DNA from: an uncultured Pseudomonadales bacterium
Lineage (GTDB): Bacteria > Patescibacteriota > Microgenomatia > UBA1400 > Chazhemtobacteraceae
NCBI GenBank assembly: GCA_964422035.1
Contig: CAYQZQ010000001.1
Span: 249,013-313,012 of the forward strand
DNA: 64,000 nucleotides
Direction: 5' to 3'
Below the pieces are notes generated by a model. The model saw only the letters and a list, made by a program, of their open reading frames with translations, did not search any database and was not told where the DNA came from. The first letter of the stretch is position 1. Every line of letters starts with the position of its first letter. This document shows, in pieces, positions 4,588-46,528 of this stretch. The position numbers and the translations under genes were made by a program.

Positions 4588-5238
4588 CTACCACTTAGAA
4601 ATCATAGCCAGAGGAGTACGCAGGATTATAAGCAGATCGTTGATAATGTTTCTTTTGTTGGCGTAGCGGGCGTCTATCTGAACTCTTTCATCCCAGGGGA
4701 TGTCGTTTCTGCCTGACACCTGCCAACGCCCGGTTAGTCCAGGTTTAACTCTCAAACTTTCGTCGATGTAAGCCTCAATCTTTTTTCCATAGCGCTTGAT
4801 GGCATCATCAAGTTCTTTTTGGACATAAGCTCTGGGACCAACTAAACTCATCTCTCCCATGAAGATATTAAAAACTTGAGGAGTTTCATCCAGTGATGTC
4901 TGTCTCATTATTTTGCCCAGCTTGGTGATTCGAGGATCTTCATCAAGACCCAGTTTCCATCCTTGCTTTTTATATTTTTCGTACAACTTTTTATCTTTTT
5001 CCCAGTATTTGACTGCGTGAACCAGTTCTCCATCTACTTTGAACATGCGCATAGAACGGAATTTGAGCATTTTAAAAGGTTTTCCACCTTGGCCAACCCT
5101 GATTGGTTTGTAAAAAATTGGACCAGGTGAGTCAAGTTTTATTAAGATGGGAATAATGATCCAGATGGGAAGAAAGAGAACAGCGAGAATTAGAGAAGCA
5201 ATGATATCAATCAAGCGCTTAGTTATTTTATAAAACAT
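4588..5238 (-). CDS. Small polyprenyl-phosphate phosphoglycosyltransferase (bacterial sugar transferase, PglC/WbaP C-terminal-domain type)
   Basis: 216 aa. It has an N-terminal re-entrant hydrophobic helix. The motifs SLVGPRA and KPGLTGRWQVSGRNDIPWDERVQIDARY are canonical for the PF02397 sugar-transferase family. Confidence 0.8.
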   Translation of the reverse strand: MFYKITKRLIDIIASLILAVLFLPIWIIIPILIKLDSPGPIFYKPIRVGQGGKPFKMLKFRSMRMFKVDGELVHAVKYWEKDKKLYEKYKKQGWKLGLDEDPRITKLGKIMRQTSLDETPQVFNIFMGEMSLVGPRAYVQKELDDAIKRYGKKIEAYIDESLRVKPGLTGRWQVSGRNDIPWDERVQIDARYANKRNIINDLLIILRTPLAMISKW

Positions 5239-12116: not shown

Positions 12117-13508
12117 TTATTTTTTATTTATAAAACCAACTGCAAGGCCGGTGTACATCCAAAACAAGGTAGCAACTTTACTGGCTTCAAATACATCCAA
12201 AAATGAAGCTATAGCCAAAAACCCGATCACCATGGAGACAATTCCTACAAGGAATTGATTAACGAAGTTATCTTTGACGATTTTTAATCCCTTGAAAAGG
12301 GCTGCCAGAAGAGAGAGTATGACTGAGGCAAAGGCAACAAAACCAAGAAGACCTGTTTCTCCTATGGCTCTTAGATAGTCATTGTCGGTGGCAAGCCCCA
12401 GCGAGCCGTAGCCTGTGCCCAAGAAGGGGTTTTTCTTAAATGAACGGATGGCCATTGGCCACTCAACATCAAACCTAATTGAAGTTGACCTGTCTTGCTG
12501 GATAGGCCTTAAAGCTGGTGCGGGAGCTGTGTCCTGTTGAGCATAAATTGGCTTGATTAGTAAGCTGCGATCATCAAACACTCCTTTAACTTGCTCTTGC
12601 ACGCTCTTGAACTGCAGAACTTTGATTAAACTACCAAAACGACTGGAGATGGCCGGAGTATTGGCTAAGCCTATTGCCGCTACAACAAAGACAGGAATAA
12701 TCCAGACAGGCTTGCGTGAAAGAAGCAGCGACAAGGGTAGTGAGATTAGAAGAGCAAAGAAAGCGATTCTGGAACCGGTTCGCAGTTGAAGCCAAAACAA
12801 GCCCAGTGAAAGAACTATCAAGAATAATTTCTGCCAGGATTTTTTGACCGCGAAAATTAAAGCTGAAAAGATTGATAAAGTCATGACTAGATAGGTGGCC
12901 AGGTCATAATGGCCGGCAAAAGTAGAGGCTAGATTTACCCCCGGCTCTAGGGTAAGAGCAAAGCCTTTGGAAAATTCAGCATTTTGAGTGGAGATTACAG
13001 GGGCCTTAAGATAAATCTGGGCCAGGCCATAGAAGAGCACCCCGACTGCAGTCACGACAATCACTTCAATGAAAAAACGTAGATTCTTCTTGTTGGCAAG
13101 AATTAAGCCAGCGAAGAAAGGAATAGCGTATTCAATACGTCGCAGCCAGTGAAGGGCAGCTATTTTAATTGAGACTGTGTGAGTTAAGAATGCTCCACTT
13201 ATTGTGGCTAAAAGACCAATTAGAAAGAAGATTATTAGCGACCTAACAACAAGAGATTTTTTAATCTGCTCTAGGTAATACGGTAAAGATAAGAGCAGAA
13301 GAAGAGCCAGGAAGGCGATAATAAAGTCTTCCAGACGAATGGCTACTGAAGTAAAGGGAAGAGTAAATAAGGGGAATTTGGGATACAAGGGAATAAACAC
13401 CAACAGAACTGCAAAGGTGTACTTTATGAGAGTGTTTAGTTTTTGTTTAGACAGATAATGCTTTAAGATAGACATCCCTTTTTTGTGAATCGTTTTTAAT
13501 AATACCAA
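12117..13508 (-). CDS. O-antigen ligase / Wzy-like polymerase family membrane protein
   Basis: Multi-TM. The periplasmic-loop motif NPFLGTGYGSLGLATDNDYLRAIGETGLLGFVAF resembles the Wzy_C (PF04932) signature G.G.G....HN.yL....E.G..G. Confidence 0.6.
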   Translation of the reverse strand: MVLLKTIHKKGMSILKHYLSKQKLNTLIKYTFAVLLVFIPLYPKFPLFTLPFTSVAIRLEDFIIAFLALLLLLSLPYYLEQIKKSLVVRSLIIFFLIGLLATISGAFLTHTVSIKIAALHWLRRIEYAIPFFAGLILANKKNLRFFIEVIVVTAVGVLFYGLAQIYLKAPVISTQNAEFSKGFALTLEPGVNLASTFAGHYDLATYLVMTLSIFSALIFAVKKSWQKLFLIVLSLGLFWLQLRTGSRIAFFALLISLPLSLLLSRKPVWIIPVFVVAAIGLANTPAISSRFGSLIKVLQFKSVQEQVKGVFDDRSLLIKPIYAQQDTAPAPALRPIQQDRSTSIRFDVEWPMAIRSFKKNPFLGTGYGSLGLATDNDYLRAIGETGLLGFVAFASVILSLLAALFKGLKIVKDNFVNQFLVGIVSMVIGFLAIASFLDVFEASKVATLFWMYTGLAVGFINKK

Positions 13509-23544: not shown

Positions 23545-24387
23545 TTAGTAGCCCCTAGTGGGTGGAAACAACGATCTTTTTAGGCGGCGCAGAGGTGTTA
23601 GCAGTGCAGCAATTATCCAGAAAGATAGGGGGGCTTTGGGGGTAACATCAGGAACTTGAGGAGGTTTGTTTTCAAAAAAGACTTGAGGAATATCTTGATC
23701 GGGTATTTTTTCTCCCAGCTCGTATTTGTATTTACCAGGCCTTTTGATTACTTTTTTGTCCTCTACCCTACTTGAAGATCTTTGCAGATGAGTGGCGTGA
23801 TGATAGAAAAGGTCAAAGAATTTAATTTTCTGAGGATTTCTGTCCTGCACCAGAGTGCCGTTTTTATCAAAATATCCTTGCTGCCCATGAGGGCGGGAGA
23901 CGTTAAGGCCAGGAATTGTTTTTAAATTCATAAAGCGTAAACTTAGGTGTCCCTGCCTCCCGGCTAGTGAATAGTTGCCGGCGGACTCAGGTAAACGATG
24001 ATAAATATCACCTACCAAGTTATGAGTTCTCAGGACAATTGATTCGTAGTCGGGGCTGTTGACAGCAAAATCAGTAATTTTTTTAAGAGTATCGTGCGGC
24101 CAGACTTCGTCACCATCTAAAAGCATCAACCAGGTGTATTTTTCAGGAGTCTTTTCTAGCATTTGGTTGCGCATTTGGGTGAAAGTATGGGGGTCAACAG
24201 ATTCTTTTTGCTGAAAATCGATTTTGTCGGACTTGATTGACTTGATTATTTCTACGGTTTTATCAGTTGAGCCGGTGTCCCAAACCATAATCTTGTCTAC
24301 AAAAGGCAGGACTGATTTAAGAGAGTAGTAGATGAATCTTTCTTCGTTTTTAACCAGTGAGTGGGCAATAATTTGAGTCTTGTCCAT
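23545..24387 (-). CDS. GT-A fold glycosyltransferase (GT2-like)
   Basis: IIAHSLVKNEERFI...MVWDTGSTDKTVEII, with DxD in LLDGDEVW. Confidence 0.65.
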   Translation of the reverse strand: MDKTQIIAHSLVKNEERFIYYSLKSVLPFVDKIMVWDTGSTDKTVEIIKSIKSDKIDFQQKESVDPHTFTQMRNQMLEKTPEKYTWLMLLDGDEVWPHDTLKKITDFAVNSPDYESIVLRTHNLVGDIYHRLPESAGNYSLAGRQGHLSLRFMNLKTIPGLNVSRPHGQQGYFDKNGTLVQDRNPQKIKFFDLFYHHATHLQRSSSRVEDKKVIKRPGKYKYELGEKIPDQDIPQVFFENKPPQVPDVTPKAPLSFWIIAALLTPLRRLKRSLFPPTRGY

Positions 24388-24459
24388 ATATGTATTTTAC
24401 ACATACTGTTAAATTTATCTGGCAGAAAAGGGGTTTGTAAATTACTATTTGTAACTGAT

Positions 24460-26352
24460 ATGATGGGAGTGATGAGCTTAGTAACACTGGCTATTTCAGT
24501 AATTTTGGCAACATTAATAGGAATCCAGCAGATGATGCCTTCTTTTACATATGGATTGATTAATCTGGAAGGAATTATGCCCGCATGGAGAGGAGTTGTG
24601 TTTGTAACCATCAGTATCTGGATTGGTGGATTGTTGATCTGGTTGTTGTTATGGCAGATTGGGAAAATGGTTTCAAAGAAAATTAATGTTTTGGAAGAGA
24701 TAATGACCAATCAAAGAGTTGTTGATCTAATGATGTTTGGAGTTTTTCTTAGTTTGGGGATGTTTCTTTTTATATTAGAAAAGGTGCCTTTGTTTGCCAC
24801 ACCCTATCCCCTACTTGCATATGGGGTAACCATCTTGATGATTGGGTCGTTTAACCTTGTGGTTGGCTTGATGATATATGGAAGTTTAGAGTTCTATAAA
24901 AAATGGATAGACAAAATTAAGTTCACAGACGTGGTGGCAAAAAGCTTGGCTGGTTTGTTGGTGGTTTTTTGGTTAGTGATGCTGGTACCTGTGGTGGTAG
25001 CCAGAATGGGATTGAGAACTAGAAACTCCGATCTGAAAAACGTAGTTTTGATAACATCTGATACTTTAAGAGGTGACAGATTCTCCCCAGAGTACATGCC
25101 AGAGACTTATCAGTGGTTTGAGGACAAGGGAATTATTTTCAAGCAAGCATATTCGACGTCGCCTTGGACAACTCCTTCTTTTGCTTCGATGATGACTGGC
25201 AGGTATCCAGCGGAATTGGGGGCTGATCAGAATGTGGCTTGGGTGCGAGAAAACTTAATTATTTTACCTGAAATTGAAACCATGGCTGAAAAGTTTCAAG
25301 ACAAAGATTACTATACAGCAGCTATCTTGACTAATACTTGGCTGCAAGAAGAAAGAGGATTTGATCAGGGCTTTGATTACTTTGAAAATATTGAAATTCC
25401 AGATGTCTATCATTGGGGAATGACTGTGAAGGATTCGGGATGGCACAAAGTAATCGAAGAACTTGGAATAAAGAAAGTAACCAGGCTGGGTTTTGAGTAT
25501 TTTGTGGGGACAACGAGCGAAGAAAATGATTTTAGAGCAAATGCTGACATGGTTAGCAGGGAAGCAATCTGGAAATTAAAAGAATTACCTGAACCGTTTT
25601 TTATGTGGGTACACTATGTTGATCCTCACGCTCCATACGAGCCACCACAAGAAATGGGGCCTGATCTTTCAAAGTTATCTGAAAAATTAAGATTCAGTGT
25701 TGTTCGAGGTGATCTTGTACCCGAGCAAAAGCACCTAAGACCAACTGTGGTTGAGTTATACGATGGAGAGGTGCGATATCACGACAAAGAAATAGCTAAA
25801 ATCTTAAGATTTCTTGATAAAAGAGGGTTGAGTAAAAAGACTGCTGTAGTATTTACAGCCGACCACGGAGAACAGCTTTATGAAAATGATGTCATAGGAC
25901 ATGGGCTGTCATTGCGTAGAGAAGAAATTAATGTGCCCTTAGGCGTTTATCCAAAATTTCCAGTAGAGCAAGAAGTTGTTGATAACGAAGAAGTAAGCCT
26001 ACATTTACTTGGAGATTGGTTGCTAAAAATGGGAGAAAACAAAGCTGAGGAATGGTTGGCAGAAGAAATTGACAGGTCGGTATTTGCTGAAGGATTAAAT
26101 CGGGGAAATGAAAAGAAGGGCATTGTTGAAGGAGGGTGGAAATTGGTGTGGGAAGATAATAAAGATACAAATACCTGGGTTAGATCAGAAAATGATGAAG
26201 AAGTAATGTTACCTTACTATTACCCTACCCAAGCTAAAGACATGCAAAGTAAATTAGAAAGCTGGAGAGAAAGTAATCTTGAAGATAAAGAAAATTATTC
26301 TAAGAAATTGGAAAGACAGGATCTTATGCTAGAGGGAGCTGCTGGTTATTAA
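24460..26352 (+). CDS. Membrane-anchored alkaline-phosphatase/sulfatase-fold enzyme, Thr-nucleophile type (LtaS/EptA/OpgB-like phosphotransferase candidate), paralog A
   Basis: About 5 N-terminal TM helices. The catalytic-domain motifs are VVLITSDTLRGDRF, SPWTTPSFASMMTGRYP (T where type I sulfatases have the C of CxPxR, and no R), FFMWVHYVDPHAPYEPP and FTADHGEQ. The start was chosen at MMGVMSL (24460) by alignment with the paralogs. The track ORF starts at 24361 and overlaps the divergent upstream gene. Confidence 0.75.
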   Translation: MMGVMSLVTLAISVILATLIGIQQMMPSFTYGLINLEGIMPAWRGVVFVTISIWIGGLLIWLLLWQIGKMVSKKINVLEEIMTNQRVVDLMMFGVFLSLGMFLFILEKVPLFATPYPLLAYGVTILMIGSFNLVVGLMIYGSLEFYKKWIDKIKFTDVVAKSLAGLLVVFWLVMLVPVVVARMGLRTRNSDLKNVVLITSDTLRGDRFSPEYMPETYQWFEDKGIIFKQAYSTSPWTTPSFASMMTGRYPAELGADQNVAWVRENLIILPEIETMAEKFQDKDYYTAAILTNTWLQEERGFDQGFDYFENIEIPDVYHWGMTVKDSGWHKVIEELGIKKVTRLGFEYFVGTTSEENDFRANADMVSREAIWKLKELPEPFFMWVHYVDPHAPYEPPQEMGPDLSKLSEKLRFSVVRGDLVPEQKHLRPTVVELYDGEVRYHDKEIAKILRFLDKRGLSKKTAVVFTADHGEQLYENDVIGHGLSLRREEINVPLGVYPKFPVEQEVVDNEEVSLHLLGDWLLKMGENKAEEWLAEEIDRSVFAEGLNRGNEKKGIVEGGWKLVWEDNKDTNTWVRSENDEEVMLPYYYPTQAKDMQSKLESWRESNLEDKENYSKKLERQDLMLEGAAGY

Positions 26353-26404
26353 TGATCATGAATATATTAACAATCCTTGATTTTAAGGAAGATAATTAAC
26401 TGAT

Positions 26405-28282
26405 ATGCTAATAGAGATGAACTTAGTAGCACTGGCTATTTCAATAACTTTGGCAACACTAATAGGTATCCAGCAGATGATGCCTTCTTTTACCTTTGGG
26501 TTGGCTAGTAGTCAATACCTGTTGCCAGCTTGGAGGGGAGTAGCAGTAGTAAGTGTTTTTATCTGGTTGGCGGGAGTGATCATTTTTATAGCAATAAAGG
26601 AAAGTTTTTTACTGACAACCAAGAAGGTTAAGTTTTTGGCAGAAATCAAGCTGAGTGAACAACTGAAGAGTATTTTGATGTTGGGAATATTTTTAAGTCT
26701 GGGAATGTTTTTGTTTATTAGCGAGAAAGTGCCTATATTTGCAGCGCCCTATCCGCTACTGGCTTATGGAGTGACGATTTTGGCGATTGGTCTTTTTAAT
26801 ACTGTTTTGGGCCTGATGGTCTACGCAAGTTTAGAGTTTTACAAAAAATGGCTCAATAAAATCAACTGGCAGATACCGGCAAAGGTGATGGCAGGAGCAA
26901 TATTGTTTTTCTGGATGGGACTACTGCTACCAGTAGTAGTTAAGAGGGTAGGAATTAGAGCCAAGACAAACGACAAGAAGAATGTGGTCGTAATCACCTC
27001 AGACGCTTTAAGAGGTGATAGGTTTAACACTGAGTACATGCCAGAAACTTACAGCTGGTTTGAAAATAAGGGAGTAATATTTGAAAATGCTTACGTACCA
27101 GCGCCTTGGACGGTGGCTTCATTTACAAGCATGATGAGTGGTAAGTATCCATCTCAGCTGGGAGCTGACAGAGGAGTAACTTGGATTAGAGAGAATTTGA
27201 TTTTATTACCAGAACTGGAATTGATAGCAGAAAGATTTCAGGATGAAGATTATTACACTGCAGCAGTATTAACAAACACTTGGTTGACTGAAGAGAGAGG
27301 GTTTGATCAAGGTTTTGATTATTTTGAAAATATTGAAAAACCAGATCTATATCATTGGGGAATGACAGTGAAAGATTCGGGATGGTTTAAGGTATTAGAA
27401 CAGTTAGGAGTAGACAAGAAAGTAAGACTGGTATACGAGTATTTTGTGGGAGCCACCAGTGAAGAGAATGACTTTAAAGCAAATGCTGACATGGTAAGCA
27501 GAGCGGCGATTTCAAAAATCAAGGAGTTACCGGAACCCTTTTTTATCTGGATTCATTATGTTGATCCCCATGATCCTTATGAACCACCGGTAGAACTGGG
27601 ACCTGATATCTCACAACTCTCAGAGGAAAAAAGACAGGATATTGTCAGTGGTAATCTAAATGAAAATGAAAAAGATCTAATAGAAATAATGATAGGGCTT
27701 TACGACGGGGAGGTAAGGTATCACGACAAAGAAATTGTCAAGATATTAAACTTTCTGGACAGAAGAGGGTTAAGCAAAAGAACAACGGTAGTGTTTTCAT
27801 CGGATCACGGCGAGGAATTAAATGAAGTAGGAGAGATTGGGCACGGACTATCTTTACGCGAGGAAGAAGTAAATATTCCCTTGGCTATATACCCCAGAGT
27901 AACCGAGGAATCTCTAATAAATGATGAAGTAAATCTGTGGAACATAGGAGATTTGTTGTTGGAGCTTGGTGATGGCAAAATAGACGAGTGGTTATCTAGT
28001 CAAAATGAAGGAGAAGTATTTTTAGAAAGCTTAAGTTACGGTAGTGAGAGAAAGGCAATAGTTAGTAATGGGAAAAAACTAGTCAGATTTATGGAGGAAG
28101 GAAGATACGAATTAAAAGATCTGAGAGGAGATGAATCTATAGCTCTCCCCTACTCGGCTCTAGCAAGAGAGTTGCAAGTTAAGTTAGACAACTGGATTGA
28201 AGGCAATCTAGAAGAAAGAGAAGAATACTCCAAAAAAATGGAAAGGCAAGATCTTATGCTTGAAGGAGCTGCAGGTTATTAA
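26405..28282 (+). CDS. Same family, paralog B
   Basis: VVVITSDALRGDRF, APWTVASFTSMMSGKYP, FFIWIHYVDPHDPYEPP, FSSDHGEE. The C-terminus MERQDLMLEGAAGY is nearly identical to that of paralog A. Confidence 0.75.
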   Translation: MLIEMNLVALAISITLATLIGIQQMMPSFTFGLASSQYLLPAWRGVAVVSVFIWLAGVIIFIAIKESFLLTTKKVKFLAEIKLSEQLKSILMLGIFLSLGMFLFISEKVPIFAAPYPLLAYGVTILAIGLFNTVLGLMVYASLEFYKKWLNKINWQIPAKVMAGAILFFWMGLLLPVVVKRVGIRAKTNDKKNVVVITSDALRGDRFNTEYMPETYSWFENKGVIFENAYVPAPWTVASFTSMMSGKYPSQLGADRGVTWIRENLILLPELELIAERFQDEDYYTAAVLTNTWLTEERGFDQGFDYFENIEKPDLYHWGMTVKDSGWFKVLEQLGVDKKVRLVYEYFVGATSEENDFKANADMVSRAAISKIKELPEPFFIWIHYVDPHDPYEPPVELGPDISQLSEEKRQDIVSGNLNENEKDLIEIMIGLYDGEVRYHDKEIVKILNFLDRRGLSKRTTVVFSSDHGEELNEVGEIGHGLSLREEEVNIPLAIYPRVTEESLINDEVNLWNIGDLLLELGDGKIDEWLSSQNEGEVFLESLSYGSERKAIVSNGKKLVRFMEEGRYELKDLRGDESIALPYSALARELQVKLDNWIEGNLEEREEYSKKMERQDLMLEGAAGY

Positions 28283-28382
28283 GCAATCTTTGATTATTTC
28301 TATAATTTAATTAAATCTATAGCGAAGTAAAAAGACACAGAGAGAGCTTTGGGCCTTTTTGGCAAACCGATGGGTAACTGAT

Positions 28383-30266
28383 ATGCTAGAAGTGATGAAT
28401 TTGTCTACACTATCTATCTCATTTATCTTGGGAGCCCTAATAGGCACCCAACAAACTTTAAAGACCTTGATTTATGGCTTGAGTAATAGAGAAGATTTAT
28501 TGGTTTCTCTAAGGGGCTCGATTATAGTGACGATAACTATCTGGTTGATCGGCTTTTTAATCTGCGGTGTTCTCAAAAGCTTGATCAAGATATTGAGCGA
28601 CAAAAACAAAAAAATTAGCGAACTGAATAAGGATAGAAGATTTAACGATCTGGTAATGGCAGGAGTATTTTTGAGCATTGGTATGTTTTTGTTTGCTGCC
28701 GAGAGAGTGCCACTGTTTGCCACCCCATATCCCCTATTGGCTTATAGCGGATTGGTTATGATCGTTGTCTTGATAAGTACTGTCATGGGTTTAATGGTTT
28801 ATGCTAGCTTGGATTACTACAAAAAATGGATTAATAAAATAAATTGGAATATTTGGATAAATGCTTTGGGAGGAGTAGTGTTGGTATTTTGGATAGGAGT
28901 AACTACACCTCTTTTGATTAAGAGGTTGGGACTGAGAATTCGAAGAACTGATAAAACAAATGTTGTATTGATTACTTCAGACACACTGAGAGGAGACAGA
29001 TTTACTGCTGAATACATGCCAGAAACATATGAGTGGTTTAGTAAAGGAACCATCTTTGAAAGAGCATATTCCACTTCTCCTTGGACAGTGCCCTCTTTTG
29101 CAAGCATGATGACCGGCAAGTATTCGGGTGAGTTGAGTGCAGACAATTTTCAATGGTGGATTGATGACAATTTTTTATTATTACCTAAGGAAGAAACATT
29201 GGCAGAGAAATTTCAAGATCGCGGCTATAGTACAACAGCAGTGTTGACAAATGGTTATTTAGTAGAAGACAGGGGGTTTGACCAGGGATTTGATGTCTAT
29301 GAAAATGTGGAGTTTACAAAGAGCTATCATTGGAGGCCAGCAATGAAAGAAACAGGATTGTATATAACCCTGGAACAACTTGGCCTGGAGAACCAGATGA
29401 GAAAAGTGTATGAATATTTTGTGGGCATGACTGAAGAGAGCGATGAGCTGATAGCTGACGCTGAGATGGTGAGTAGCGAAGCTATTCGCCAAATACAAGG
29501 GTTAAAGGAGCCATTCTTTGTCTGGATTCACTACTATGACGCTCACGGTATATATAATCCACCAGAAGGATATGGGCCAGATATTTCTAATTTATCTGAT
29601 GATTTGAAAAAAGCTGTGATGTCAGGTGATATTGACAAAGACAACTTGGAACTCAGAGAAGTAGTGATTGGCTTATACGACGGAGAAGTGCGTTATCACG
29701 ATAAGGAAATTGCACGAGTGTTAAGATTTCTAGACAGAAGAGGGCTAAGCAAACGTACAGCGGTGGTATTTACAGCAGATCATGGTGAACAGTTTTGGGA
29801 AGGAGGTCAGTACGGACACGGGTTTAGCTTGCGTAATGAAGAGATTAGGGTGCCTTTGGCAGTATCCTCAATCTTTGATTTTGATAATCAAATAGCAGAA
29901 AATAACGAAGTGAGCTTATATCTTTTAGGAGATTGGCTGCTAGATATGGCAGAAGGAGATCCCGATCACTGGTTAGAAGAAGAGTTGAGCAGGTCGGTGT
30001 TCGCTGAGGGTTTGAGAAGTGGAGTAGAAAAGAAAGGAATAGTAAATGAAGAGTGGAAACTGGTGTGGGAGATAGAAAATAACAATACAAGCTTGAAAAA
30101 CGCCTTTAATGATGAATCATACAGAGGTTATATGTATCCAAGCATAAGCGGTACTCTTGAGTCAGAACTTAGATCATGGAATGAAAATAATGAGGAAGCA
30201 GGGGGAAACTACCGTAAAGCTTTGGAGAGAGTTGATGTTAATTTACCAGAAGTTTCTGGTTACTGA
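28383..30266 (+). CDS. Same family, paralog C
   Basis: VVLITSDTLRGDRF, SPWTVPSFASMMTGKYS, FFVWIHYYDAHGIYNPP, FTADHGEQ. Start chosen at MLEVMNLS (28383). The track ORF begins at an upstream TTG (28359). Confidence 0.7.
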   Translation: MLEVMNLSTLSISFILGALIGTQQTLKTLIYGLSNREDLLVSLRGSIIVTITIWLIGFLICGVLKSLIKILSDKNKKISELNKDRRFNDLVMAGVFLSIGMFLFAAERVPLFATPYPLLAYSGLVMIVVLISTVMGLMVYASLDYYKKWINKINWNIWINALGGVVLVFWIGVTTPLLIKRLGLRIRRTDKTNVVLITSDTLRGDRFTAEYMPETYEWFSKGTIFERAYSTSPWTVPSFASMMTGKYSGELSADNFQWWIDDNFLLLPKEETLAEKFQDRGYSTTAVLTNGYLVEDRGFDQGFDVYENVEFTKSYHWRPAMKETGLYITLEQLGLENQMRKVYEYFVGMTEESDELIADAEMVSSEAIRQIQGLKEPFFVWIHYYDAHGIYNPPEGYGPDISNLSDDLKKAVMSGDIDKDNLELREVVIGLYDGEVRYHDKEIARVLRFLDRRGLSKRTAVVFTADHGEQFWEGGQYGHGFSLRNEEIRVPLAVSSIFDFDNQIAENNEVSLYLLGDWLLDMAEGDPDHWLEEELSRSVFAEGLRSGVEKKGIVNEEWKLVWEIENNNTSLKNAFNDESYRGYMYPSISGTLESELRSWNENNEEAGGNYRKALERVDVNLPEVSGY

Positions 30267-30268
30267 AT

Positions 30269-32149
30269 ATGATTAACGCTATGACATTGATAAGTTACTG
30301 GGTAGTTCTGGGGATCATGGTGGGAGCACAACAACTTATGCCAGTAACTGTTTTTGCTTTCTTAAAGCCCTGGCAGGCTGAAATTTCCTTTAGAGCAGTG
30401 ATGGCATTTTCAATCTGGTTGATTTTTTTAGGCGGGGCATTAGTAGCACTACTTAGGGGGCTTATTAAAACTGTTAGCAGAAAACTTGAGTGGAACAGTA
30501 TTAGAAAAGCAAGTGATGAGTTGGGCTTTGGACTGGCTTTGAGTACAGCAGTGTTTTTGACAATGGGAGTGTTTCTCCTTTCAGTTGAAAAAATTCCGGT
30601 TTTGGAAAAGGAAAAACTTTTAGGAGCAGTGTTGATGAGCAGTTTAGTGTTAATTATTTTGACCACCTTTGTTTTTTACGGAGCATGGAAGTATTACGAG
30701 AAATGGATCGAAAAATATGCCAGGATAACTATCTTGGGCCTAGGTGGTTTAGTAGTTTTGCTAACCACTACTTTGTTTGGAGTTAAGCTTATTGGAGATC
30801 GATGGCCTATTAAGGCAGAAAAGTCAGATAAGCCCAGTGTTATCTGGGTAACAGTAGATGCCTTAAGACATGACAGATTCACATTAGAGTATATGCCACA
30901 AACTTATCAGTGGTTTGAGGAGGAGGGGTATATTTTTGAAAACGCCATGGCTCCTGCCCCCTGGACTGTCCCCTCTTTTGCATCCATGGTTACAGGCGAG
31001 TATCCATCTCAGATGCGAGCGGATCTGCCAATGAATGAACAGGAAAAGAATTTTGAGGTTTTGCCAGAAAAAATTACCATAGCAGAGGAATTTAAGGATC
31101 TGGGGTACAGTACAGCTGCGGTAGTAACCAACGGTTGGCTAAATGAGAGAAGAGGTTTTGATCAGGGGTTTGACTATTTTGTTAATCTGGAAGCGACAAA
31201 TGTCTACGACTGGGGGAAAGTCACTCATGATTCTGGGTTTTATAAATTAAGCGAGGCAATTGGCTGGGAAAATAAATTAAAAAACTGGTACCAGGGCCTG
31301 GTAAGAGTGAGAAGTACTGAATCGGCTTTTGAAATTGACGGTGAAGTGGTGGTGAATGAGGCGCTGAAGGTGAGAGAGCGCTTGCAGGAACCATACTTTT
31401 TATGGATTCACCTGATTGACCCGCACGGACCATACATTCCACCAATTGAGTTTTACCCCAACACAGCTGGTTACACAGGAGATGAGGTTTATAAAGCAGA
31501 ACACATGGTTGACCGGGAAGCCTCTGATAAGCTGCGTGAGCTTACGGTTACTTTTTATGATCAACTGGTCGCCTATACTGATCAACAGCTTTACAGACTG
31601 TTCTCAGAGCTGGAGAAGAGCGATGAGAGCATGGTGATAGTGTTTAACAGCGATCATGGAGAGCAGTTTTGGGAGAATGATGGGGAAATCGGACATGGTC
31701 ACAATTTGTATGCTGAAAATGTTCATGTACCAATGGCAATTGCCACAGATGGAGATTGGGAGTGGAAAGAAGAATCAGAGGACCTGGTGGACTTAAAAGA
31801 GATTAAAAACATCATGCTTTCTATTGCTGAAATTGAAGAGGTAGATTTTTTGGGAGAGGACAAGATGGTGTTTGTGGAGGGCAGAATTGAGGGACCAGGT
31901 CAGCAAGCAGTAATAAATCCTGACACCTGGAAGCTGATCACCAAAAAAGGAGCTGAAGAACTTTACATTTTGCTTTTCGATCCTAAAGAAATGATGAATC
32001 TACGAGCAGTTAGAAGGTATTTGGGCGGGAGACTAAGCGGTCAGATTGAAGACTGGCAGAGCGGTATGCAGCAGAAAAGAAAAGAATACGCCAGAAAGTT
32101 AGAACAAAGACATGGAGGAGAAAGCTTGCCAGATGTGGCAGGTTATTAG
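30269..32149 (+). CDS. Same family, paralog D (most divergent)
   Basis: VIWVTVDALRHDRF, APWTVPSFASMVTGEYP, YFLWIHLIDPHGPYIPP, FNSDHGEQ. Its start is 2 nt after the paralog C stop. The C-terminus ...SLPDVAGY matches the family tail. Confidence 0.7.
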   Translation: MINAMTLISYWVVLGIMVGAQQLMPVTVFAFLKPWQAEISFRAVMAFSIWLIFLGGALVALLRGLIKTVSRKLEWNSIRKASDELGFGLALSTAVFLTMGVFLLSVEKIPVLEKEKLLGAVLMSSLVLIILTTFVFYGAWKYYEKWIEKYARITILGLGGLVVLLTTTLFGVKLIGDRWPIKAEKSDKPSVIWVTVDALRHDRFTLEYMPQTYQWFEEEGYIFENAMAPAPWTVPSFASMVTGEYPSQMRADLPMNEQEKNFEVLPEKITIAEEFKDLGYSTAAVVTNGWLNERRGFDQGFDYFVNLEATNVYDWGKVTHDSGFYKLSEAIGWENKLKNWYQGLVRVRSTESAFEIDGEVVVNEALKVRERLQEPYFLWIHLIDPHGPYIPPIEFYPNTAGYTGDEVYKAEHMVDREASDKLRELTVTFYDQLVAYTDQQLYRLFSELEKSDESMVIVFNSDHGEQFWENDGEIGHGHNLYAENVHVPMAIATDGDWEWKEESEDLVDLKEIKNIMLSIAEIEEVDFLGEDKMVFVEGRIEGPGQQAVINPDTWKLITKKGAEELYILLFDPKEMMNLRAVRRYLGGRLSGQIEDWQSGMQQKRKEYARKLEQRHGGESLPDVAGY

Positions 32150-33384
32150 AGCAGACTTTTTAATTTCCAGCCAGTTAAGACTAAAACGACGGTGTTTGAG
32201 ACAGCTAAAGCTATGGTTGGGGCCATAGGGCCCATGGTGGGAATAAGAATTACTTCAATAATGACCAGTAACCCCACCTGTATAGCGGTAGCAAGAGCGG
32301 TGAAGTTGGGTTTATTGAAAAAGTATATTAATGGATTAGTAGTGATAATGGAAAGCAAAAACGGGATCATGGCTAAGGTCAGATATCTAAACACAGGAAT
32401 GGCCGCAGCATATTGGCTACCAAAGACTGTGTTGACGATGAGAGGAGCCAGCAGGATAGACAAAACCATTAAGACTGAGATTCCTCCGATTAGAAGTGAG
32501 GTCTTTTTAATGTAGGCGGTTACTTGTTTTTTCTTATTAAATGACGAGAAGCGAGGAGCAACCACACTACCAAGAGAGGAAACCAGCAAGGCAAAAAGCA
32601 TGGTGATGCGGGAAGCAGCAGCGTATATGCCCGCCTGATGGTTAGTGCCAAGGGCATTTAGCAGAATTACATCAACACGAGAGATGGCCACACTGAAGCT
32701 TCGCATGATGGCAACCCATTTTGTGAAGTGGAATATTCTTTTCAGGTACTGTTTGGGGAAGATAAAAGAGATGTTGCCCAGCTCTTTGAAAAGACCAATG
32801 CTGGCAGCTAGAGTAACTGAACCAATAATGGATAAGAGAACTATGCGGATGTCTAACGTAAATAAGAAGAACAATAAGCCAACGGGAATTAATTTTCCGA
32901 CAGATTCGATTATTTGAACTATAGCTGAGTACAAGAAATTCTTTTCTGCTTTAAGAAGGTATTGAGCAAACCCACTGATTAGAGCGGCAGAAGTAAGAAT
33001 GGGTAATAAAAGAAAGTGAGTAAGAGTTGAGCCGGGGATTATCTGACTGTGCCAAGGACTAACAACTAGAATTAAGAGAGCTAAGAAAATGGCAATTATT
33101 ATCTGAATCCAGAAAGACAGGGAAACAATAGAGTTCCTGTCTGACTTGTACTTGGGAATAAAATTAACTAAGGCTGAGGATATGCCCATGTCCCCTAAGC
33201 TAGCTAGCAGAATAGCTGTAGAGGTTAAGGCTGACAAGACACCAAACTGGGAGGGAGCCAGACCTCGAGCTACCAGAATGGTAAAGGTAGCGCCAGAGAC
33301 AGCCACTATGCCGTTGCCCATTAAGGTAATAAAGGTATCTTTGGAAGTGTCTGAAAAAACCAGGTGTTTAATTTTGCTGATCAT
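32146..33384 (-). CDS. wzx: Polysaccharide biosynthesis / Wzx-like flippase (MOP superfamily)
   Basis: 412 aa with about 12 TM. The N-terminus FITLMGNGIVAVSGATFTILVARGLAPSQFGV is typical of Polysacc_synt/Wzx proteins. Its stop overlaps the paralog D stop by 4 nt (convergent). Confidence 0.55.
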   Translation of the reverse strand: MISKIKHLVFSDTSKDTFITLMGNGIVAVSGATFTILVARGLAPSQFGVLSALTSTAILLASLGDMGISSALVNFIPKYKSDRNSIVSLSFWIQIIIAIFLALLILVVSPWHSQIIPGSTLTHFLLLPILTSAALISGFAQYLLKAEKNFLYSAIVQIIESVGKLIPVGLLFFLFTLDIRIVLLSIIGSVTLAASIGLFKELGNISFIFPKQYLKRIFHFTKWVAIMRSFSVAISRVDVILLNALGTNHQAGIYAAASRITMLFALLVSSLGSVVAPRFSSFNKKKQVTAYIKKTSLLIGGISVLMVLSILLAPLIVNTVFGSQYAAAIPVFRYLTLAMIPFLLSIITTNPLIYFFNKPNFTALATAIQVGLLVIIEVILIPTMGPMAPTIALAVSNTVVLVLTGWKLKSLL

Positions 33385-34954
33385 TGCTGACTAGAATTGT
33401 ACCGATAAATTCACGATTTTCGTAGATTTGACCGGGATTAATTTCAAATGTAGTTAAAACTTGATAATTTTCTGAGAGAAACTCATTTTCAATATTTTTA
33501 GGGCTGTAAACCACCTCACTCCACTCCCCTAGTGCAAAATCTGCATCGTGCTCTTTGTAGTTGGTAATAACTATGTAATCTACTTTATTTTGGAATCCCT
33601 CAAGCATATCTGGCTTAATAGGAAACCACATAGTAGTTAAGCCTTCATACCAAGCTGCCCAAGCGTCTAGGTTGGTGATTATCAAATGATCTTTAGGAAT
33701 GTGCTGAGCCATAATGCGAGAGATTTCACGATAAACGGGCGGTTTATTAGTGTTATATTTTTGAGCTCTGAAGCGAGCATCTATAGTGAAGTGCCCTATT
33801 GATGGCAGGAGAATGAAAAATACAACAACAGATAAAGCCAGATTGGAAAACTTGAGATTTGCTTTTTTGATGATCTGGACTAAAGAAATAGATGCAGAGA
33901 TAAAAACCAGTGGCATAGCTGGATGGATATAGCGGGCGTTAGGTAAGGTAAGAGCCGAGGAGAGAATAAATAAGGATAGAGTGATAAGAGTAAAGAGGTT
34001 AAATTTTTTGATTTTAGCAGGCAAATTTCTTAGGAAAAAGCCTAAGATGAAGAAGATAAAGATGCCGGCAGGGGCTAAGCGAGAAGGGTCTTTAAGGAAA
34101 TTGTAAGTGTTGTAAAAAAGTTTAGAAGCTGTTTGAAATAGGGAAGTTGATGAGTAGCCACCACCTCGAATGAAGGTTCCTGGATTTAGAGACGGAAGAA
34201 TGTTTATAGACCCTAAATGAGAGGTAAAAACAGACAAAAAACCAAGCGCTCTGAGAAGGAAAAAGATAACCGCAATGCCGATGAGACGAGGAGCTAAATA
34301 ATTGAACTGTTTGCGTTTGGATTGTTTGGTTTTGGCTAAGATGAGTAGTAAGTAGAGGCTAAAGGCTAAATAAATTATGATTGCTTGAGGGCGAGTAAAA
34401 TACATTAATATCAGGGGGATAAAGCCAAGATATTTATATCTAGATTTGACGATAATAAATAGATAGACAGATAATAAGATTTCAAGTGTAAAGATAATCT
34501 CTGTAGAAAAATTCAAAGAATATTCAAAGAAAAAGAGATTGGTAAGGAGAAGCAAGCAAGCAATGATAGCTGATTTCAGGTGAGAAATCTTTTTAGTGAT
34601 TTTGAAAACAATAACAGCTGAGATGAGCAAAACAAAGAAACCTGTCAAAGCTACCGAGGTGTCAGAGGCGGGGAAAATTCTAAAGACTAAGTTGAGAATA
34701 ATACTGATTAGGGGCCTGAAGTTGCTGGAAAAACCGCCTCCCGTATATTCGGCTAGAACAACAGGGTTAAAAAAACTGTGGTTGATGGCTAATATACCTT
34801 TATTGAGTAAATTGTTGGCAGCTTGGGCATATTTAGCAGAATCAGAAAATGATAGATAGAAGCTCATATGCTTAATTGTACCTGAAAGAATGATCTTGTT
34901 TAATTCTTCCAGCACACTAGTATAATTTGTACTTATGATAGGAAGTGTTGTCAC
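33368..34954 (-). CDS. GT-C fold glycosyltransferase candidate (ArnT/GT39-like, degenerate DE motif)
   Basis: 528 aa, polytopic. SFSDSAKYAQAANNLLNKG resembles the (D-E..Y.A..A.NM) first-loop motif of ArnT-like enzymes, with D-S in place of D-E. The start is uncertain; an alternative M lies at MSFYLSF. Confidence 0.45.
   Translation of the reverse strand: MTTLPIISTNYTSVLEELNKIILSGTIKHMSFYLSFSDSAKYAQAANNLLNKGILAINHSFFNPVVLAEYTGGGFSSNFRPLISIILNLVFRIFPASDTSVALTGFFVLLISAVIVFKITKKISHLKSAIIACLLLLTNLFFFEYSLNFSTEIIFTLEILLSVYLFIIVKSRYKYLGFIPLILMYFTRPQAIIIYLAFSLYLLLILAKTKQSKRKQFNYLAPRLIGIAVIFFLLRALGFLSVFTSHLGSINILPSLNPGTFIRGGGYSSTSLFQTASKLFYNTYNFLKDPSRLAPAGIFIFFILGFFLRNLPAKIKKFNLFTLITLSLFILSSALTLPNARYIHPAMPLVFISASISLVQIIKKANLKFSNLALSVVVFFILLPSIGHFTIDARFRAQKYNTNKPPVYREISRIMAQHIPKDHLIITNLDAWAAWYEGLTTMWFPIKPDMLEGFQNKVDYIVITNYKEHDADFALGEWSEVVYSPKNIENEFLSENYQVLTTFEINPGQIYENREFIGTILVSNDQQN
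34896..34926 (+). promoter_or_regulatory. Candidate sigma70-type promoter (TTGTTT ...19 nt... TATAAT) 8 nt upstream of the ATG at 34935
   Basis: A perfect TATAAT hexamer sits at 34921..34926 and a TTGTTT at 34896..34901. This implies a very short leader for the plus-strand membrane-protein gene. Confidence 0.3.
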
Positions 34955-44453: not shown

Positions 44454-44524
44454 AGTGGCTTATATTTTTCTGTATTATATAGCAAACTTTTGTATGAAAC
44501 AGAAAATATAGGTTGCTATTATCA

Positions 44525-45355: not shown

Positions 45356-45373
45356 TTCTTACTACTTTACATA

Positions 45374-46501: not shown

Positions 46502-46528
46502 CCTTGAGATCTAAATGATATTTTCATG

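What the first reader, a model, noticed from the sequence alone, without database searches (positions are those of the whole stretch)
24460..32149. Tandem array of four diverged membrane-anchored Thr-type alkaline-phosphatase-superfamily enzymes inside a glycan island
Four consecutive plus-strand genes encode proteins of about 625 aa. They are the only long plus-strand block in the left 37 kb. Each has about 5 N-terminal TM helices and an extracytoplasmic sulfatase-fold domain. All keep the metal-site motifs of the fold: ITSD(T/A)LRGDRF, W(V/I)HYVDPH.PY.PP and (A/S)DHGE(Q/E). Where type I sulfatases have the C/S-x-P-x-R formylglycine motif, all four have W-T-(T/V)-(P/A)-S-F, with Thr at the nucleophile position and no Arg. 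This matches LtaS, EptA/MCR and OpgB-type phospho-alcohol transferases, which use Thr, rather than sulfatases. Pairwise divergence is graded: A and B are closest, then C, then D. They sit among about 30 glycosylation genes. That suggests a diversified set of enzymes decorating a surface glycan or lipid with phospho-substituents such as phosphoglycerol, phosphoethanolamine or phosphocholine. Alternatively they could synthesise a polyol-phosphate polymer.
Basis: partly seen in the sequence, partly recalled or inferred. Interest (0 to 1): 0.85.

Follow-up and report, generated by a model that had tools for sequence, protein, structure and literature searches.

The report
Four threonine-type sulfatase-fold membrane enzymes
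Four neighbouring genes in the sugar-coat gene island of a tiny-genome (Patescibacteria) bacterium encode membrane-anchored enzymes built on a sulfatase scaffold, but the sulfatase catalytic residues are replaced by a threonine-plus-histidine set typical of phosphate-transferring enzymes, so they most likely add or trim phosphate-linked decorations on the surface glycan; the family is large, unstudied and routinely mislabelled 'arylsulfatase'.

Summary
Four intact tandem plus-strand paralogs (A 24460-26352, B 26405-28282, C 28383-30266, D 30269-32149; 625-630 aa; 61/53/33% identity to A) each have 5 N-terminal TM helices plus a PF00884 domain. Thr sits exactly where S1 sulfatases have the formylglycine Cys/Ser.

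They belong to a large uncharacterised W-T-x-P-S clade (8,257 cluster representatives at E<=1e-30) with no solved structure. The 144 closest alignable representatives all have Thr.

Membrane-anchored members recur as clustered paralogs and sit in Wzx/Wzy or GT-C glycan loci in unrelated lineages.

Best reading: extracytoplasmic Thr-nucleophile metallo-phosphotransferases that decorate the surface glycan. A hydrolase role is not excluded. I rate it a new variant of a known kind, of moderate interest.

The parts
24460..26352 (+). Gene A, 630 aa: 5-TM N-terminal module, Thr-type sulfatase-fold catalytic domain, C-terminal subdomain ending ...GAAGY*
   Evidence: ORF. It is identical to the NCBI/Logan protein P0001. 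PF00884 E 3.8e-33 and PF01663 43 bits. AF2 model pLDDT 85.8.
26405..28282 (+). Gene B, 625 aa, 61% identical to A. Nucleophile motif W-T-V-A-S-F.
28383..30266 (+). Gene C, 627 aa, 53% identical to A. The ORF extends upstream to a TTG at 28359, but the ATG at 28383 has the conserved start context.
   Evidence: It equals P0003.
30269..32149 (+). Gene D, 626 aa, 33% identical to A. It starts 2 nt after the stop of C, and its end overlaps the convergent Wzx gene by 4 nt.
24460..25008 (+). Membrane module of A (aa 1-183): five TM helices. Lys/Arg-rich loops 2 and 4 predict an N-in/C-out topology. A G-x-Q-Q motif sits at the outer end of TM1.
   Evidence: KD scan, AF2 helices 7-24, 36-72, 85-108, 117-152 and 158-183, loop charges, subfamily alignment.
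25030..25959 (+). Catalytic core of A (aa 191-500), alpha/beta AP-superfamily fold. Putative active-site residues: D201, R204, T237, H385, D388, H390, D468, H469, H481.
25960..26349 (+). C-terminal subdomain of A (aa 501-630): four-stranded sheet, a long helix at 589-621 and a disordered tail ending in the conserved GY.
   Evidence: AF2. PF16347 SGSH_C in homologs. C-terminal motif.
25168..25170 (+). Codon of the putative nucleophile Thr237 of A. Equivalent codons: B Thr236 at 27110-27112, C Thr235 at 29085-29087, D Thr233 at 30965-30967.
   Evidence: It aligns with the FGly Cys/Ser of 8di0, 9ihk, 6bia, 6ust and 3ed4 and with the EptA Thr. It is the first residue of helix 237-246.
23545..24387 (-). 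Context: divergently transcribed GT2 glycosyltransferase, 72 nt upstream of A.
32146..33384 (-). Context: Wzx-type flippase (Polysacc_synt, 12 TM), convergent with D.
33368..34954 (-). Context: PMT_2 (GT-C fold) glycosyltransferase that acts on the outer face. Similar genes lie at 10693-12114, 19112-20551 and 59071-60507.
12117..13508 (-). Context: Wzy_C polymerase/ligase-type protein.
4588..5238 (-). Context: Bac_transf initiating phosphoglycosyl transferase.

Best explanation
A-D are four diverged paralogs of an uncharacterised Thr-type branch of the sulfatase/phosphonate-monoester-hydrolase lineage of the alkaline-phosphatase superfamily. The host is a Patescibacteria (Microgenomates-group) bacterium.

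Architecture:
- Each protein is held in the membrane by five helices (N-in, C-out).
- The catalytic domain sits on the outer face, directly on the membrane. The linker is only about 10 residues.

Active site (inferred to be binuclear):
- Thr237 is the nucleophile.
- D201, D468 and H469 bind one metal.
- D388, H390 and H481, possibly with H385, form a second metal or phosphate-binding site.

Proposed reaction (ping-pong):
1. Thr attacks the phosphorus of a membrane-embedded phosphodiester donor, most simply a phospholipid headgroup as for EptA, OpgB, GacH and BcsG. A polyprenyl-phosphate-linked donor is also possible.
2. The lipid leaves, and a phospho-alcohol-Thr intermediate forms.
3. The phospho-substituent is passed to a hydroxyl of the surface glycan. 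That glycan is flipped by the adjacent Wzx and elaborated outside by the many GT-C enzymes of the island.

The four paralogs would differ in acceptor position and/or donor.

Shown: gene structure, fold, residue identities and their family-wide invariance, loss of the sulfate-binding residues, and recurrence in glycan loci.

Inferred: binuclear metal geometry, phosphoryl rather than sulfuryl chemistry, transfer rather than hydrolysis, and the identities of donor and acceptor.
For: 1. Thr at the nucleophile position.
- HMMER alignments place W-T-T-P-S-F-A-S-M-M-T-G on C/S-x-P-x-R-x-x-x-x-T-G of crystallised sulfatases and on the Thr of EptA's G-T-A-T-A-V-S.
- In the model, Thr237 starts helix 237-246. 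D201, H390 and D468/H469 sit just after strands 194-200, 380-386 and 461-467.

2. Sulfate-specific residues are lost.
- The motif Arg is replaced by F/V/I/M and is never R in 121 + 145 homologs.
- The S1 G-K-x-W-H signature reads L-T-N-T-W-L.
- The late sulfate-binding Lys is replaced by the invariant H481, within one residue in the alignments.

3. Phosphotransferase-like motifs are gained. D-T-L-R-x-D matches EptA E-T-S-R-A-E. ADHGEQLYENDVIGHG matches EptA SDHGESLGENGIYLHG. PF01663 scores above its gathering threshold for A-C.

4. Invariance of the seven-residue set. D201 143/144, T237 144/144, D/E388 145/145, and H390, D468, H469 and H481 each 145/145. The order D, Thr, D-x-H, D-H, H is that of AP/NPP binuclear sites (established knowledge).

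5. Architecture. All known polytopic (4-5 TM) AP-superfamily enzymes transfer phospholipid headgroups or bind lipid. Other clade members are fused to the PF03706 MprF/YbhN-type lipid-flippase-like domain.

6. Context.
- The window is a 64-kb glycan island with Wzx, Wzy and at least 10 polytopic GT-C/Wzy-like proteins.
- In a Planctomycetota MAG, three clade paralogs sit inside a PGT-GT4-GT4-Wzx-Wza-Wzz-Wzy-AcT-deacetylase locus.
- Two more members lie next to PMT_2 or Wzx genes.

7. All four paralogs keep every catalytic residue, so all are probably active.
Against: - No member of the clade has been characterised or solved (literature), so the chemistry rests on analogy.
- I could not measure distances in the model because its coordinates are not exposed. 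The binuclear site and Thr-metal contact are therefore inferred from alignment and topology only.
- About two thirds of the clade have no or one N-terminal hydrophobic segment and are probably soluble secreted enzymes. That fits hydrolases better than lipid-donor transferases.
- The TM module is not conserved across the clade, unlike the EptA or LtaS membrane domains. It may be just an anchor.
- Three of the seven other contexts examined (L002, L010, L012) show no glycan genes, and L003 has only a GT9 and an acyltransferase several kb away.
- The related genome lacks lipid biosynthesis, which makes phospholipid a costly donor.
Confidence: 0.5

Rival explanations
1. They are extracytoplasmic hydrolases (phosphodiesterases or phosphomonoesterases of NPP/PafA type) tethered to the membrane. 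They would trim phosphate-linked groups from the glycan or its lipid carrier (for example release, remodelling or carrier recycling), or scavenge phosphate, nucleotides or lipid headgroups for a metabolically dependent cell.
For: - The active-site residue set is the same as in NPP/AP hydrolases, and PF01663 scores above threshold.
- Most clade members appear soluble or single-anchored (86 of 121 have 0-1 hydrophobic segment).
- The TM module is not conserved across the clade.
- Several contexts lack glycan genes.
- The nearest characterised relatives (sulfatases, PMH) are hydrolases.
- The lineage depends on external lipids and nucleotides.
Against: - A five-helix anchor with a 10-residue linker is not needed for a soluble-substrate hydrolase. 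Among known AP-superfamily proteins it is confined to lipid-headgroup transferases and lipid binders.
- Four paralogs sit in the middle of a glycan assembly locus, and there is an independent triplet inside a Wzx/Wzy locus in Planctomycetota.
- Some clade members are fused to a lipid-flippase-like domain.
Confidence: 0.28
2. They are LtaS-like polymerases or primases that build a polyol-phosphate (teichoic-acid-like) chain on a glycolipid, with the four paralogs acting as primase and synthases.
For: - The gross architecture matches LtaS/LtaP (5 TM plus an outside PF00884 domain with Thr).
- Multi-paralog sets (LtaS, YfnI, YqgS, YvgJ) are known in Bacillus (established knowledge).
Against: - There is no LtaS-type T-x-N-x-E motif, and no LtaS family model is hit.
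- OpgB, the nearest E. coli relative of LtaS, scores only 10 bits against the clade profile.
- Polymerisation needs a large flux of phosphatidylglycerol, and relatives of this organism cannot make lipids.
- The clade occurs mainly in diderm phyla such as Planctomycetota, Acidobacteriota and Myxococcota.
Confidence: 0.07
3. They are true sulfatases, or sulfate-group enzymes, that use Thr or a modified Thr instead of formylglycine.
For: - The closest relatives by sequence and fold are S1 sulfatases.
- Databases call the homologs arylsulfatase or choline-sulfatase.
- One subfamily member sits next to a PAPS-reductase-family gene.
Against: - All sulfate-binding or FGly-activating residues (motif Arg, GK-WH Lys and His, late Lys) are replaced.
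- Thr cannot give formylglycine.
- No FGE or anSME gene is present among the 55 ORFs of the window.
Confidence: 0.04
4. They are non-catalytic, PbgA/YejM-like lipid or glycan sensors, or scaffolds.
Against: All nine putative catalytic residues are kept in four paralogs that have diverged to 33% identity, and they are invariant in 145 representatives. That pattern is expected for active enzymes.
Confidence: 0.04

Closest known systems
Type I (S1) formylglycine sulfatases and S1_0 phosphonate monoester hydrolases (e.g. SpAS1 4upi, SpAS2 4upl, choline sulfatase 6g5z/7pth, A. muciniphila sulfatase 7ebp)
   Same: - They share the N-terminal alpha/beta core plus the C-terminal SGSH_C-like subdomain, the GFDxF motif and the nucleophile-helix spacing x-P-x5-T-G.
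- They share the D-H-G metal motif in its PMH/SpAS2/EfAS His variant.
   Different: - Thr replaces Cys/Ser-FGly, and there is no motif Arg.
- The GK-WH Lys and His are lost, and the late Lys is replaced by His.
- The second Asp of the D-D motif is Thr or Ala.
- An invariant H-x-x-D-x-H and an R204/D206 pair are added.
- The proteins have a polytopic membrane anchor.
- No maturation enzyme gene lies nearby.
EptA/MCR-1/EptC phosphoethanolamine transferases
   Same: - Five N-terminal TM helices plus an outside AP-superfamily domain.
- A Thr nucleophile.
- Motif I (D/E)-T-x-R-A-(D/E).
- DHGE-x-L-x-E-x5-H-G, with the second His 12 residues after the D-H pair.
   Different: - Only about 61 residues align by BLASTP (33% identity, E 7e-7).
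- No PF08019 EptA N-terminal domain is detected.
- The first metal ligand is Asp, not Glu.
- There is an extra D388 and an extra sulfatase-type C-terminal subdomain.
- A, B and D have no cysteines, whereas EptA/MCR have disulfides (my own knowledge).
- The linker is very short.
LtaS/LtaP, OpgB and GacH phosphoglycerol transferases
   Same: The architecture and Thr nucleophile are shared, and these enzymes act on surface glycans or glycolipids. GacH and OpgB are precedents for decorating a polysaccharide encoded in the same locus.
NPP/PhoK/PafA-type binuclear Thr phosphodiesterases and phosphatases (PF01663)
   Same: They share the Thr nucleophile followed by x-P and, nine residues after the Thr, T-G. 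The order and type of the seven putative ligands are the same. PF01663 scores above its gathering threshold for A, B and C.
PbgA/YejM (LapC)
   Different: PbgA acts mainly as a lipid/LPS-binding regulator. Here the full catalytic set is invariant. The NCBIfam LapC model matches only about 75 residues at 24.5 bits against a cutoff of 825.

Membership tests
Alkaline-phosphatase superfamily, PF00884 'Sulfatase' domain | Significant match to PF00884 and the alpha/beta AP-superfamily fold | tested here: met
   [not shown]
Type I (S1) formylglycine-dependent sulfatases | C/S-x-P/A-x-R motif with Cys or Ser at the nucleophile position | tested here: not met
   A-D have T-(T/V)-(P/A)-S-F, and 264 of 265 aligned homologs have Thr. 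The regex hits S-D-A-L-R in B and S-E-A-I-R in C lie elsewhere and are not conserved.
Type I (S1) formylglycine-dependent sulfatases | G-Y-x-[TSCV]-x3-G-K-x-W-H signature (Lys and His that bind sulfate/FGly) and the late sulfate-binding Lys | tested here: not met
   The signature reads (D/G)-Y-x-T-x3-(L/V)-T-N-x-(W/Y)-L (pattern from PMC5066984). The late Lys of 9ihk and AslA aligns, within one residue, with the invariant H481.
Type I (S1) formylglycine-dependent sulfatases | A maturation enzyme (FGE or anSME) is available | tested here: not met
   No PF03781 or radical-SAM protein is found among the 55 ORFs of at least 150 aa in the window. The rest of the genome was not available.
Type I (S1) formylglycine-dependent sulfatases | Overall sequence and fold similarity, including the C-terminal subdomain | tested here: met
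   The profile gives E 1.8e-73 to 4upi. The Foldseek top 50 are all S1. Homologs carry PF16347.
EptA/MCR phosphoethanolamine transferases | N-terminal EptA_B_N (PF08019) membrane domain and a full-length match to EptA family models | tested here: not met
   Pfam gives no PF08019 hit. NCBIfam EptA/MCR models score 15-30 bits over about 55 residues against cutoffs of 500-1250.
EptA/MCR phosphoethanolamine transferases | Catalytic Thr, an acidic first ligand in (E)-T-x-R, D-H, and a second His 12 residues later | tested here: met
   Profile and BLASTP alignments to E. coli EptA. The first ligand is Asp rather than Glu.
LtaS/LtaP lipoteichoic acid synthases | Thr in a T-x-N-x-E context and a match to LtaS-type models | tested here: not met
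   The motif is W-T-x-P-S-F. No LtaS model appears among the NCBIfam hits. The T-x-N-x-E description comes from PMC5066984.
LtaS/LtaP lipoteichoic acid synthases | Five N-terminal TM helices followed by an extracellular catalytic domain | tested here: met
OpgB (MdoB) phosphoglycerol transferase I | Sequence relationship to OpgB | tested here: not met
   The clade profile scores 10.0 bits against E. coli OpgB.
NPP / type I phosphodiesterase (PF01663) | Match above the Pfam gathering threshold | tested here: inconclusive
   A scores 43.0, B 31.5 and C 37.7 bits (cutoff 23), while D scores 19.0, below the cutoff. PF00884 scores far higher in all four.
NPP / type I phosphodiesterase (PF01663) | Binuclear Zn site formed by D, T, D-H plus D, H, H | not testable with these tools
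   Residues of the right type and order are invariant.
Phospholipid-headgroup transferases in general (functional class) | Release of diacylglycerol from PE/PG and transfer of the phospho-alcohol to an acceptor | not testable with these tools
   This requires biochemistry.

The most novel reading that the evidence does not exclude
The W-T-x-P-S clade would be an independent, sulfatase-derived invention of extracytoplasmic phospho-substituent transferases. A formylglycine, one-metal sulfatase scaffold would have been rebuilt into a Thr, two-metal phosphoryl-transfer site that converges on EptA/NPP chemistry. In this Patescibacteria genome, four paralogs would install distinct phosphodiester-linked groups (for example P-EtN, P-Gro or P-Cho taken from scavenged host lipids) on the surface glycan, diversifying the surface that mediates episymbiotic contact.
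Probability: 0.3. Interest if true: 0.75.

Novelty: new variant of a known kind. Interest (0 to 1): 0.55.

Why it matters
1. Annotation. Thousands of proteins are labelled 'arylsulfatase A-like' or 'choline-sulfatase' (8,257 cluster representatives at E<=1e-30 to this profile, and the 144 closest alignable ones all have Thr). They cannot be formylglycine sulfatases. Sulfatase counts used in glycan-degradation and sulfur-cycle surveys are inflated by them.

2. Enzyme evolution. The clade is a natural intermediate inside the alkaline-phosphatase superfamily. It pairs a sulfatase/PMH scaffold with an EptA/NPP-type nucleophile and ligand set. That makes it directly useful for the long-standing question of how nucleophile and metal stoichiometry switch between sulfuryl and phosphoryl transfer.

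3. Biology of ultra-small bacteria. A 725-kb genome spends about 7.7 kb on four such enzymes, inside a glycan island that fills the whole 64-kb window. This points to phosphate-linked surface decoration as an important trait, possibly one relevant to host contact.

Tried and rejected
- Source contig look-up for protein A found no record.
- The genome-contig scan with the four-paralog alignment found no relatives. I therefore have no named-genome survey.
- The afdb50 fold library was unavailable.
- EfAS, the 'manganese-dependent arylsulfatase' model NF052527, looked like a possible Thr or odd-metal precedent. It is a Cys/FGly enzyme.
- The OpgE-like gene of the Shewanella vesiculosa P49 cluster belongs to the EptA family, not this clade.
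- The CPR and AP-superfamily literature searches gave no paper on the W-T-x-P-S clade.
- An alignment of membrane modules across 22 polytopic clade members showed no conservation beyond hydrophobicity.
- A TM-module-only AlphaFold2 model was too poor (pLDDT 52.7, pTM 0.33) to search against EptA, LtaS or PbgA membrane domains, so I did not run that search.
- The promoter/terminator scan gave fewer promoter-like sites than the shuffles and terminator-like sites at about the shuffle expectation, so operon structure is inferred only from spacing (52, 100 and 2 nt).
- The weak ENPP hits are disregarded, because the last 8 residues of that query peptide were my own extrapolation.
- The antisense ORFs inside the genes (24297-24710, 28817-29146, 30295-30666) are treated as spurious.

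Full report
**Observation.** The window holds four consecutive plus-strand ORFs at 24361/24460-26352, 26405-28282, 28359/28383-30266 and 30269-32149.
- A conserved start context (taactgatATG at 24460, 26405 and 28383; tactgaatATG at 30269) fixes the starts. The resulting products of 630, 625, 627 and 626 aa are identical or near-identical to proteins already called on a 725,544-bp NCBI contig.
- Spacers are 52, 100 and 2 nt. The array is flanked by a divergent GT2 gene and a convergent Wzx gene.
- Identity to A is 61% (B), 53% (C) and 33% (D). The catalytic domain is the best conserved part (71/59/41%), and the membrane module (55/47/25%) and C-terminal part (47/48/24%) are less so.
- Each protein has five hydrophobic helices before residue ~185. 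These are reproduced as long helices in an AlphaFold2 model of A (mean pLDDT 85.8, pTM 0.76).
- Loops 2 and 4 carry 3-7 Lys/Arg against 0-3 in loops 1 and 3. This predicts an N-in/C-out topology with the catalytic domain outside.
- PF00884 matches residues ~190-500 of all four at E 4e-33 to 6e-27.

**Source and surroundings.** The GlyRS at 623-1990 is 75% identical to that of Candidatus Chazhemtobacterium aquaticus, and 65% identical to those of Collierbacteria and other Microgenomates-group Patescibacteria. That relative has a closed genome of about 0.8 Mb and lacks lipid, amino-acid and nucleotide synthesis.

Almost every gene in the 64 kb is glycan-related:
- an initiating phosphoglycosyl transferase and ManC;
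- 9 GT4, 8 GT2 and 4 PMT_2/GT-C genes, plus about six more 8-10-TM proteins without a Pfam hit;
- Wzy, Wzx and Wzm/Wzt;
- NeuB with a CMP-sugar synthetase;
- an acetyltransferase and five methyltransferases.

Much of this machinery works on the outer face of the membrane. That is where the catalytic domains of A-D are predicted to sit.

**Which residue is the nucleophile.** HMMER alignments to crystallised sulfatases put A's S-P-W-T-T-P-S-F-A-S-M-M-T-G on the C/S-x-P-x-R-x-x-x-x-T-G signature. Thr237 lands on the formylglycine Cys/Ser, and Phe241 lands on the motif Arg. The clade profile aligns the same Thr with the Thr of E. coli EptA's G-T-A-T-A-V-S segment.

In the model, Thr237 is the first residue of helix 237-246. 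D201, H390 and D468-H469 follow strands 194-200, 380-386 and 461-467. This is the canonical arrangement of superfamily active sites, and the EfAS paper describes the nucleophile at the N-terminus of a helix next to the sheet. I could not measure distances, because model coordinates are not exposed to scripts. 'Thr at the metal site' therefore rests on homology and topology, not on geometry.

**Family placement.** The proteins are not LtaS, EptA or OpgB family members.
- NCBIfam gives only far-sub-threshold hits. The best are arylsulfatase and choline-sulfatase models over the whole domain, while EptA/MCR models match only about 55 residues around DHGE.
- A profile of 50 clade members hits solved S1 sulfatases and phosphonate monoester hydrolases at up to 251 bits (E 1.8e-73), with no LtaS or EptA among the best 60.
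- The same profile scores 90.4 bits on E. coli AslA, 42.6 bits on the C-terminal part of the EptA catalytic domain and 10.0 bits on OpgB.
- BLASTP of A against EptA aligns 61 residues.
- The Foldseek top 50 are all S1 sulfatases.
- Homologs also carry the sulfatase C-terminal subdomain (PF16347) and the GFDxF motif.

By descent, this is a branch of the sulfatase/PMH lineage.

**But they are not sulfatases.** Every residue that defines FGly-sulfatase chemistry is replaced.
- The nucleophile is Thr, which cannot yield formylglycine.
- The motif Arg (99% conserved in S1) is F/V/I/M/L/H and never Arg.
- The G-K-x-W-H signature reads L-T-N-T-W-L.
- The late sulfate-binding Lys is replaced by an invariant His.
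- No maturation enzyme gene lies in the window.

The replacements are phosphotransferase-like.
- D-T-L-R-x-D parallels EptA's E-T-S-R-A-E.
- ADHGEQLYENDVIGHG parallels EptA's SDHGESLGENGIYLHG, with the same 12-residue spacing from the D-H pair to the second His.
- PF01663 (NPP) scores above its gathering threshold for A-C.
- The clade adds an invariant H-x-x-D-x-H (H385/D388/H390).
- In the 145 closest cluster representatives, T237 is 144/144, D201 is 143/144, and D/E388 is 145/145. H390, D468, H469 and H481 are each 145/145.
- The order D, Thr, D-x-H, D-H, H is that of the binuclear sites of alkaline phosphatase and NPP (established knowledge).

I therefore infer a two-metal, Thr-nucleophile, phosphoryl-transfer site. 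The inference is not verified.

**The clade.** An exhaustive profile search of 1.84 billion cluster representatives gives 79,124 hits at E<=1e-3 and 8,257 at E<=1e-30.
- Named members come from Planctomycetota, Acidobacteriota (Thermoanaerobaculia), Myxococcota (including Sandaracinus) and others. They are annotated 'arylsulfatase A-like', 'sulfatase' or 'choline-sulfatase'.
- Architectures vary. Of the 121 sequences examined, 43 have no N-terminal hydrophobic segment, 43 have one, and 26 have 3-5. A few have 7-12 TM helices, among them fusions to the PF03706 MprF/YbhN flippase-like domain. Some chains carry two catalytic domains.
- Most end in L-R-A-L-G-Y-(I/L/V)-x.
- A narrow subfamily of about a dozen representatives (P0004, P0243-P0252, P0255; 24-28% identical to A) shares A-D's 5-TM form, P-W-T-x-P-S-F, DHGEEF-x-(E/D)-H...GH and an extreme C-terminal G-(D/E)-V-V-G-Y.
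- No solved structure and no paper on a W-T-x-P-S enzyme was found. SulfAtlas only remarks that PF00884 contains Thr-bearing, LtaS-type T-x-N-x-E sequences that are not sulfatases.

**Context elsewhere.**
- Paralog clustering recurs. One Guaymas-sediment contig has three copies interleaved with two 11-TM proteins. Two other contigs have two copies each, and a Planctomycetota MAG has three.
- In that MAG the three copies sit inside a complete PGT-GT4-GT4-Wzx-Wza-Wzz-Wzy-acetyltransferase-deacetylase locus.
- Another member is flanked by PMT_2, sugar epimerases and many polytopic proteins. P0243 follows a Wzx gene.
- Other contexts (L002, L010, L012) show no glycan genes, so the association is suggestive rather than universal.

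**Mechanistic reading.** All known polytopic (4-5 TM) AP-superfamily proteins (EptA/B, CptA, MCR, OpgB, OpgE, BcsG, LtaS, GacH) transfer a phospholipid headgroup to an envelope acceptor. PbgA, the exception, binds lipid instead. Four things point the same way:
- this architecture;
- the very short linker, which places the active site on the membrane surface;
- the Thr/His-rich site;
- the location between Wzx and GT-C genes.

The best-supported model is a ping-pong phospho-substituent transfer from a membrane-embedded phosphodiester donor to the flipped glycan. The four paralogs would provide different acceptor or donor specificities (confidence about 0.5).

The main rival is a tethered phosphodiesterase or phosphatase (about 0.28). 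It is favoured by the many apparently soluble clade members, by the non-conserved membrane module and by the hydrolase nature of the nearest characterised relatives. The LtaS-like polymerase, true sulfatase and PbgA-like non-catalytic readings are each unlikely, for the reasons given in the rivals section.

**Verdict.** Its family assignment needs correcting. These are members of a large, uncharacterised, systematically misannotated Thr-type offshoot of the sulfatase/PMH lineage, with EptA/NPP-like catalytic motifs. I rate it a new variant of a known kind with moderate interest (0.55). It is valuable for annotation hygiene and for alkaline-phosphatase-superfamily evolution, and it is directly testable by simple biochemistry.

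Noticed in passing
window 1-64000: GC skew is positive in every 2-kb bin (0.04-0.32, cumulative 5.85), even though about 90% of the genes are on the minus strand. The related Ca. Chazhemtobacterium aquaticus was reported to have an unusual strand compositional disparity, suggesting largely unidirectional replication (PMC7143001).
   Followed up: partly
window 26329-26349, 28259-28279, 30243-30263, 32126-32146 (last 7 codons of A-D): All four proteins end in ...GY*. The narrow subfamily ends ...(L/F)-G-(D/E)-V-V-G-Y*, and most of the wider clade ends ...L-R-A-L-G-Y-(I/L/V)-x*. The tail is disordered in the model (pLDDT<50). The role of this conserved extreme C-terminus is unknown; it could be a docking or sorting signal, or an oligomerisation element.
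   Followed up: partly
window 24450-24462, 26395-26407, 28373-28385, 30259-30271: The sequence immediately upstream of each start codon is conserved (taactgatATG, or tactgaatATG for D). The duplications therefore carried the translation-start context with them. This also argues for the ATG at 28383 as C's start.
   Followed up: yes
window 42464-48690: NeuB (42464-43324), a CMP-sugar cytidylyltransferase fused to a HAD phosphatase (43311-44453), an MptE/Maf-like protein (44525-45355) and Wzt/Wzm ABC transporter genes (46529-48690). This looks like a second, ABC-exported glycan containing a nonulosonic acid, in a Patescibacteria genome.
   Followed up: no
window 54434-55768: A protein like the F420 hydrogenase/dehydrogenase beta subunit (FrhB_FdhB N and C domains) is embedded among glycosyltransferases and methyltransferases. 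Its role in a glycan locus is unclear.
   Followed up: no
window 60519-62735 and 52944-54356: Two fusion proteins: GT2 plus PMT_2/GT-C (738 aa), and GT2 plus a SAM methyltransferase (470 aa).
   Followed up: no
window 17803-19146, 20548-21747, 34935-37088, 40860-42452, 57320-58585: Five polytopic proteins (8-10 predicted TM helices) have no Pfam hit. They are probably divergent GT-C or Wzy-like enzymes. Similar unannotated 10-11-TM proteins flank clade members in L002 and L008.
   Followed up: partly
L011 5976-8533: The subfamily member P0243 lies next to a PF01507 (PAPS-reductase family) gene and a 574-aa PF01663 (NPP-type) protein. This is the only hint of sulfur-nucleotide chemistry near a clade member, and nothing comparable is in the window.
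   Followed up: no
P0096, P0098, P0109, P0120; P0253, P0254, P0259: Some clade members are fused to the PF03706 LPG_synthase_TM/YbhN flippase-like domain (11-12 TM helices). One of them is a Sandaracinus amylolyticus protein annotated 'choline-sulfatase'. Others carry two Thr-type catalytic domains in one chain.
   Followed up: partly
window 24460-32149: A, B and D contain no cysteine at all, and C has one. EptA/MCR ectodomains, by contrast, are disulfide-rich (my own knowledge).
   Followed up: partly
window 24297-24710, 28817-29146, 30295-30666 (minus strand): Antisense ORFs of 109-137 aa lie inside or overlap genes A, C and D. They have no support and are treated as spurious.
   Followed up: no
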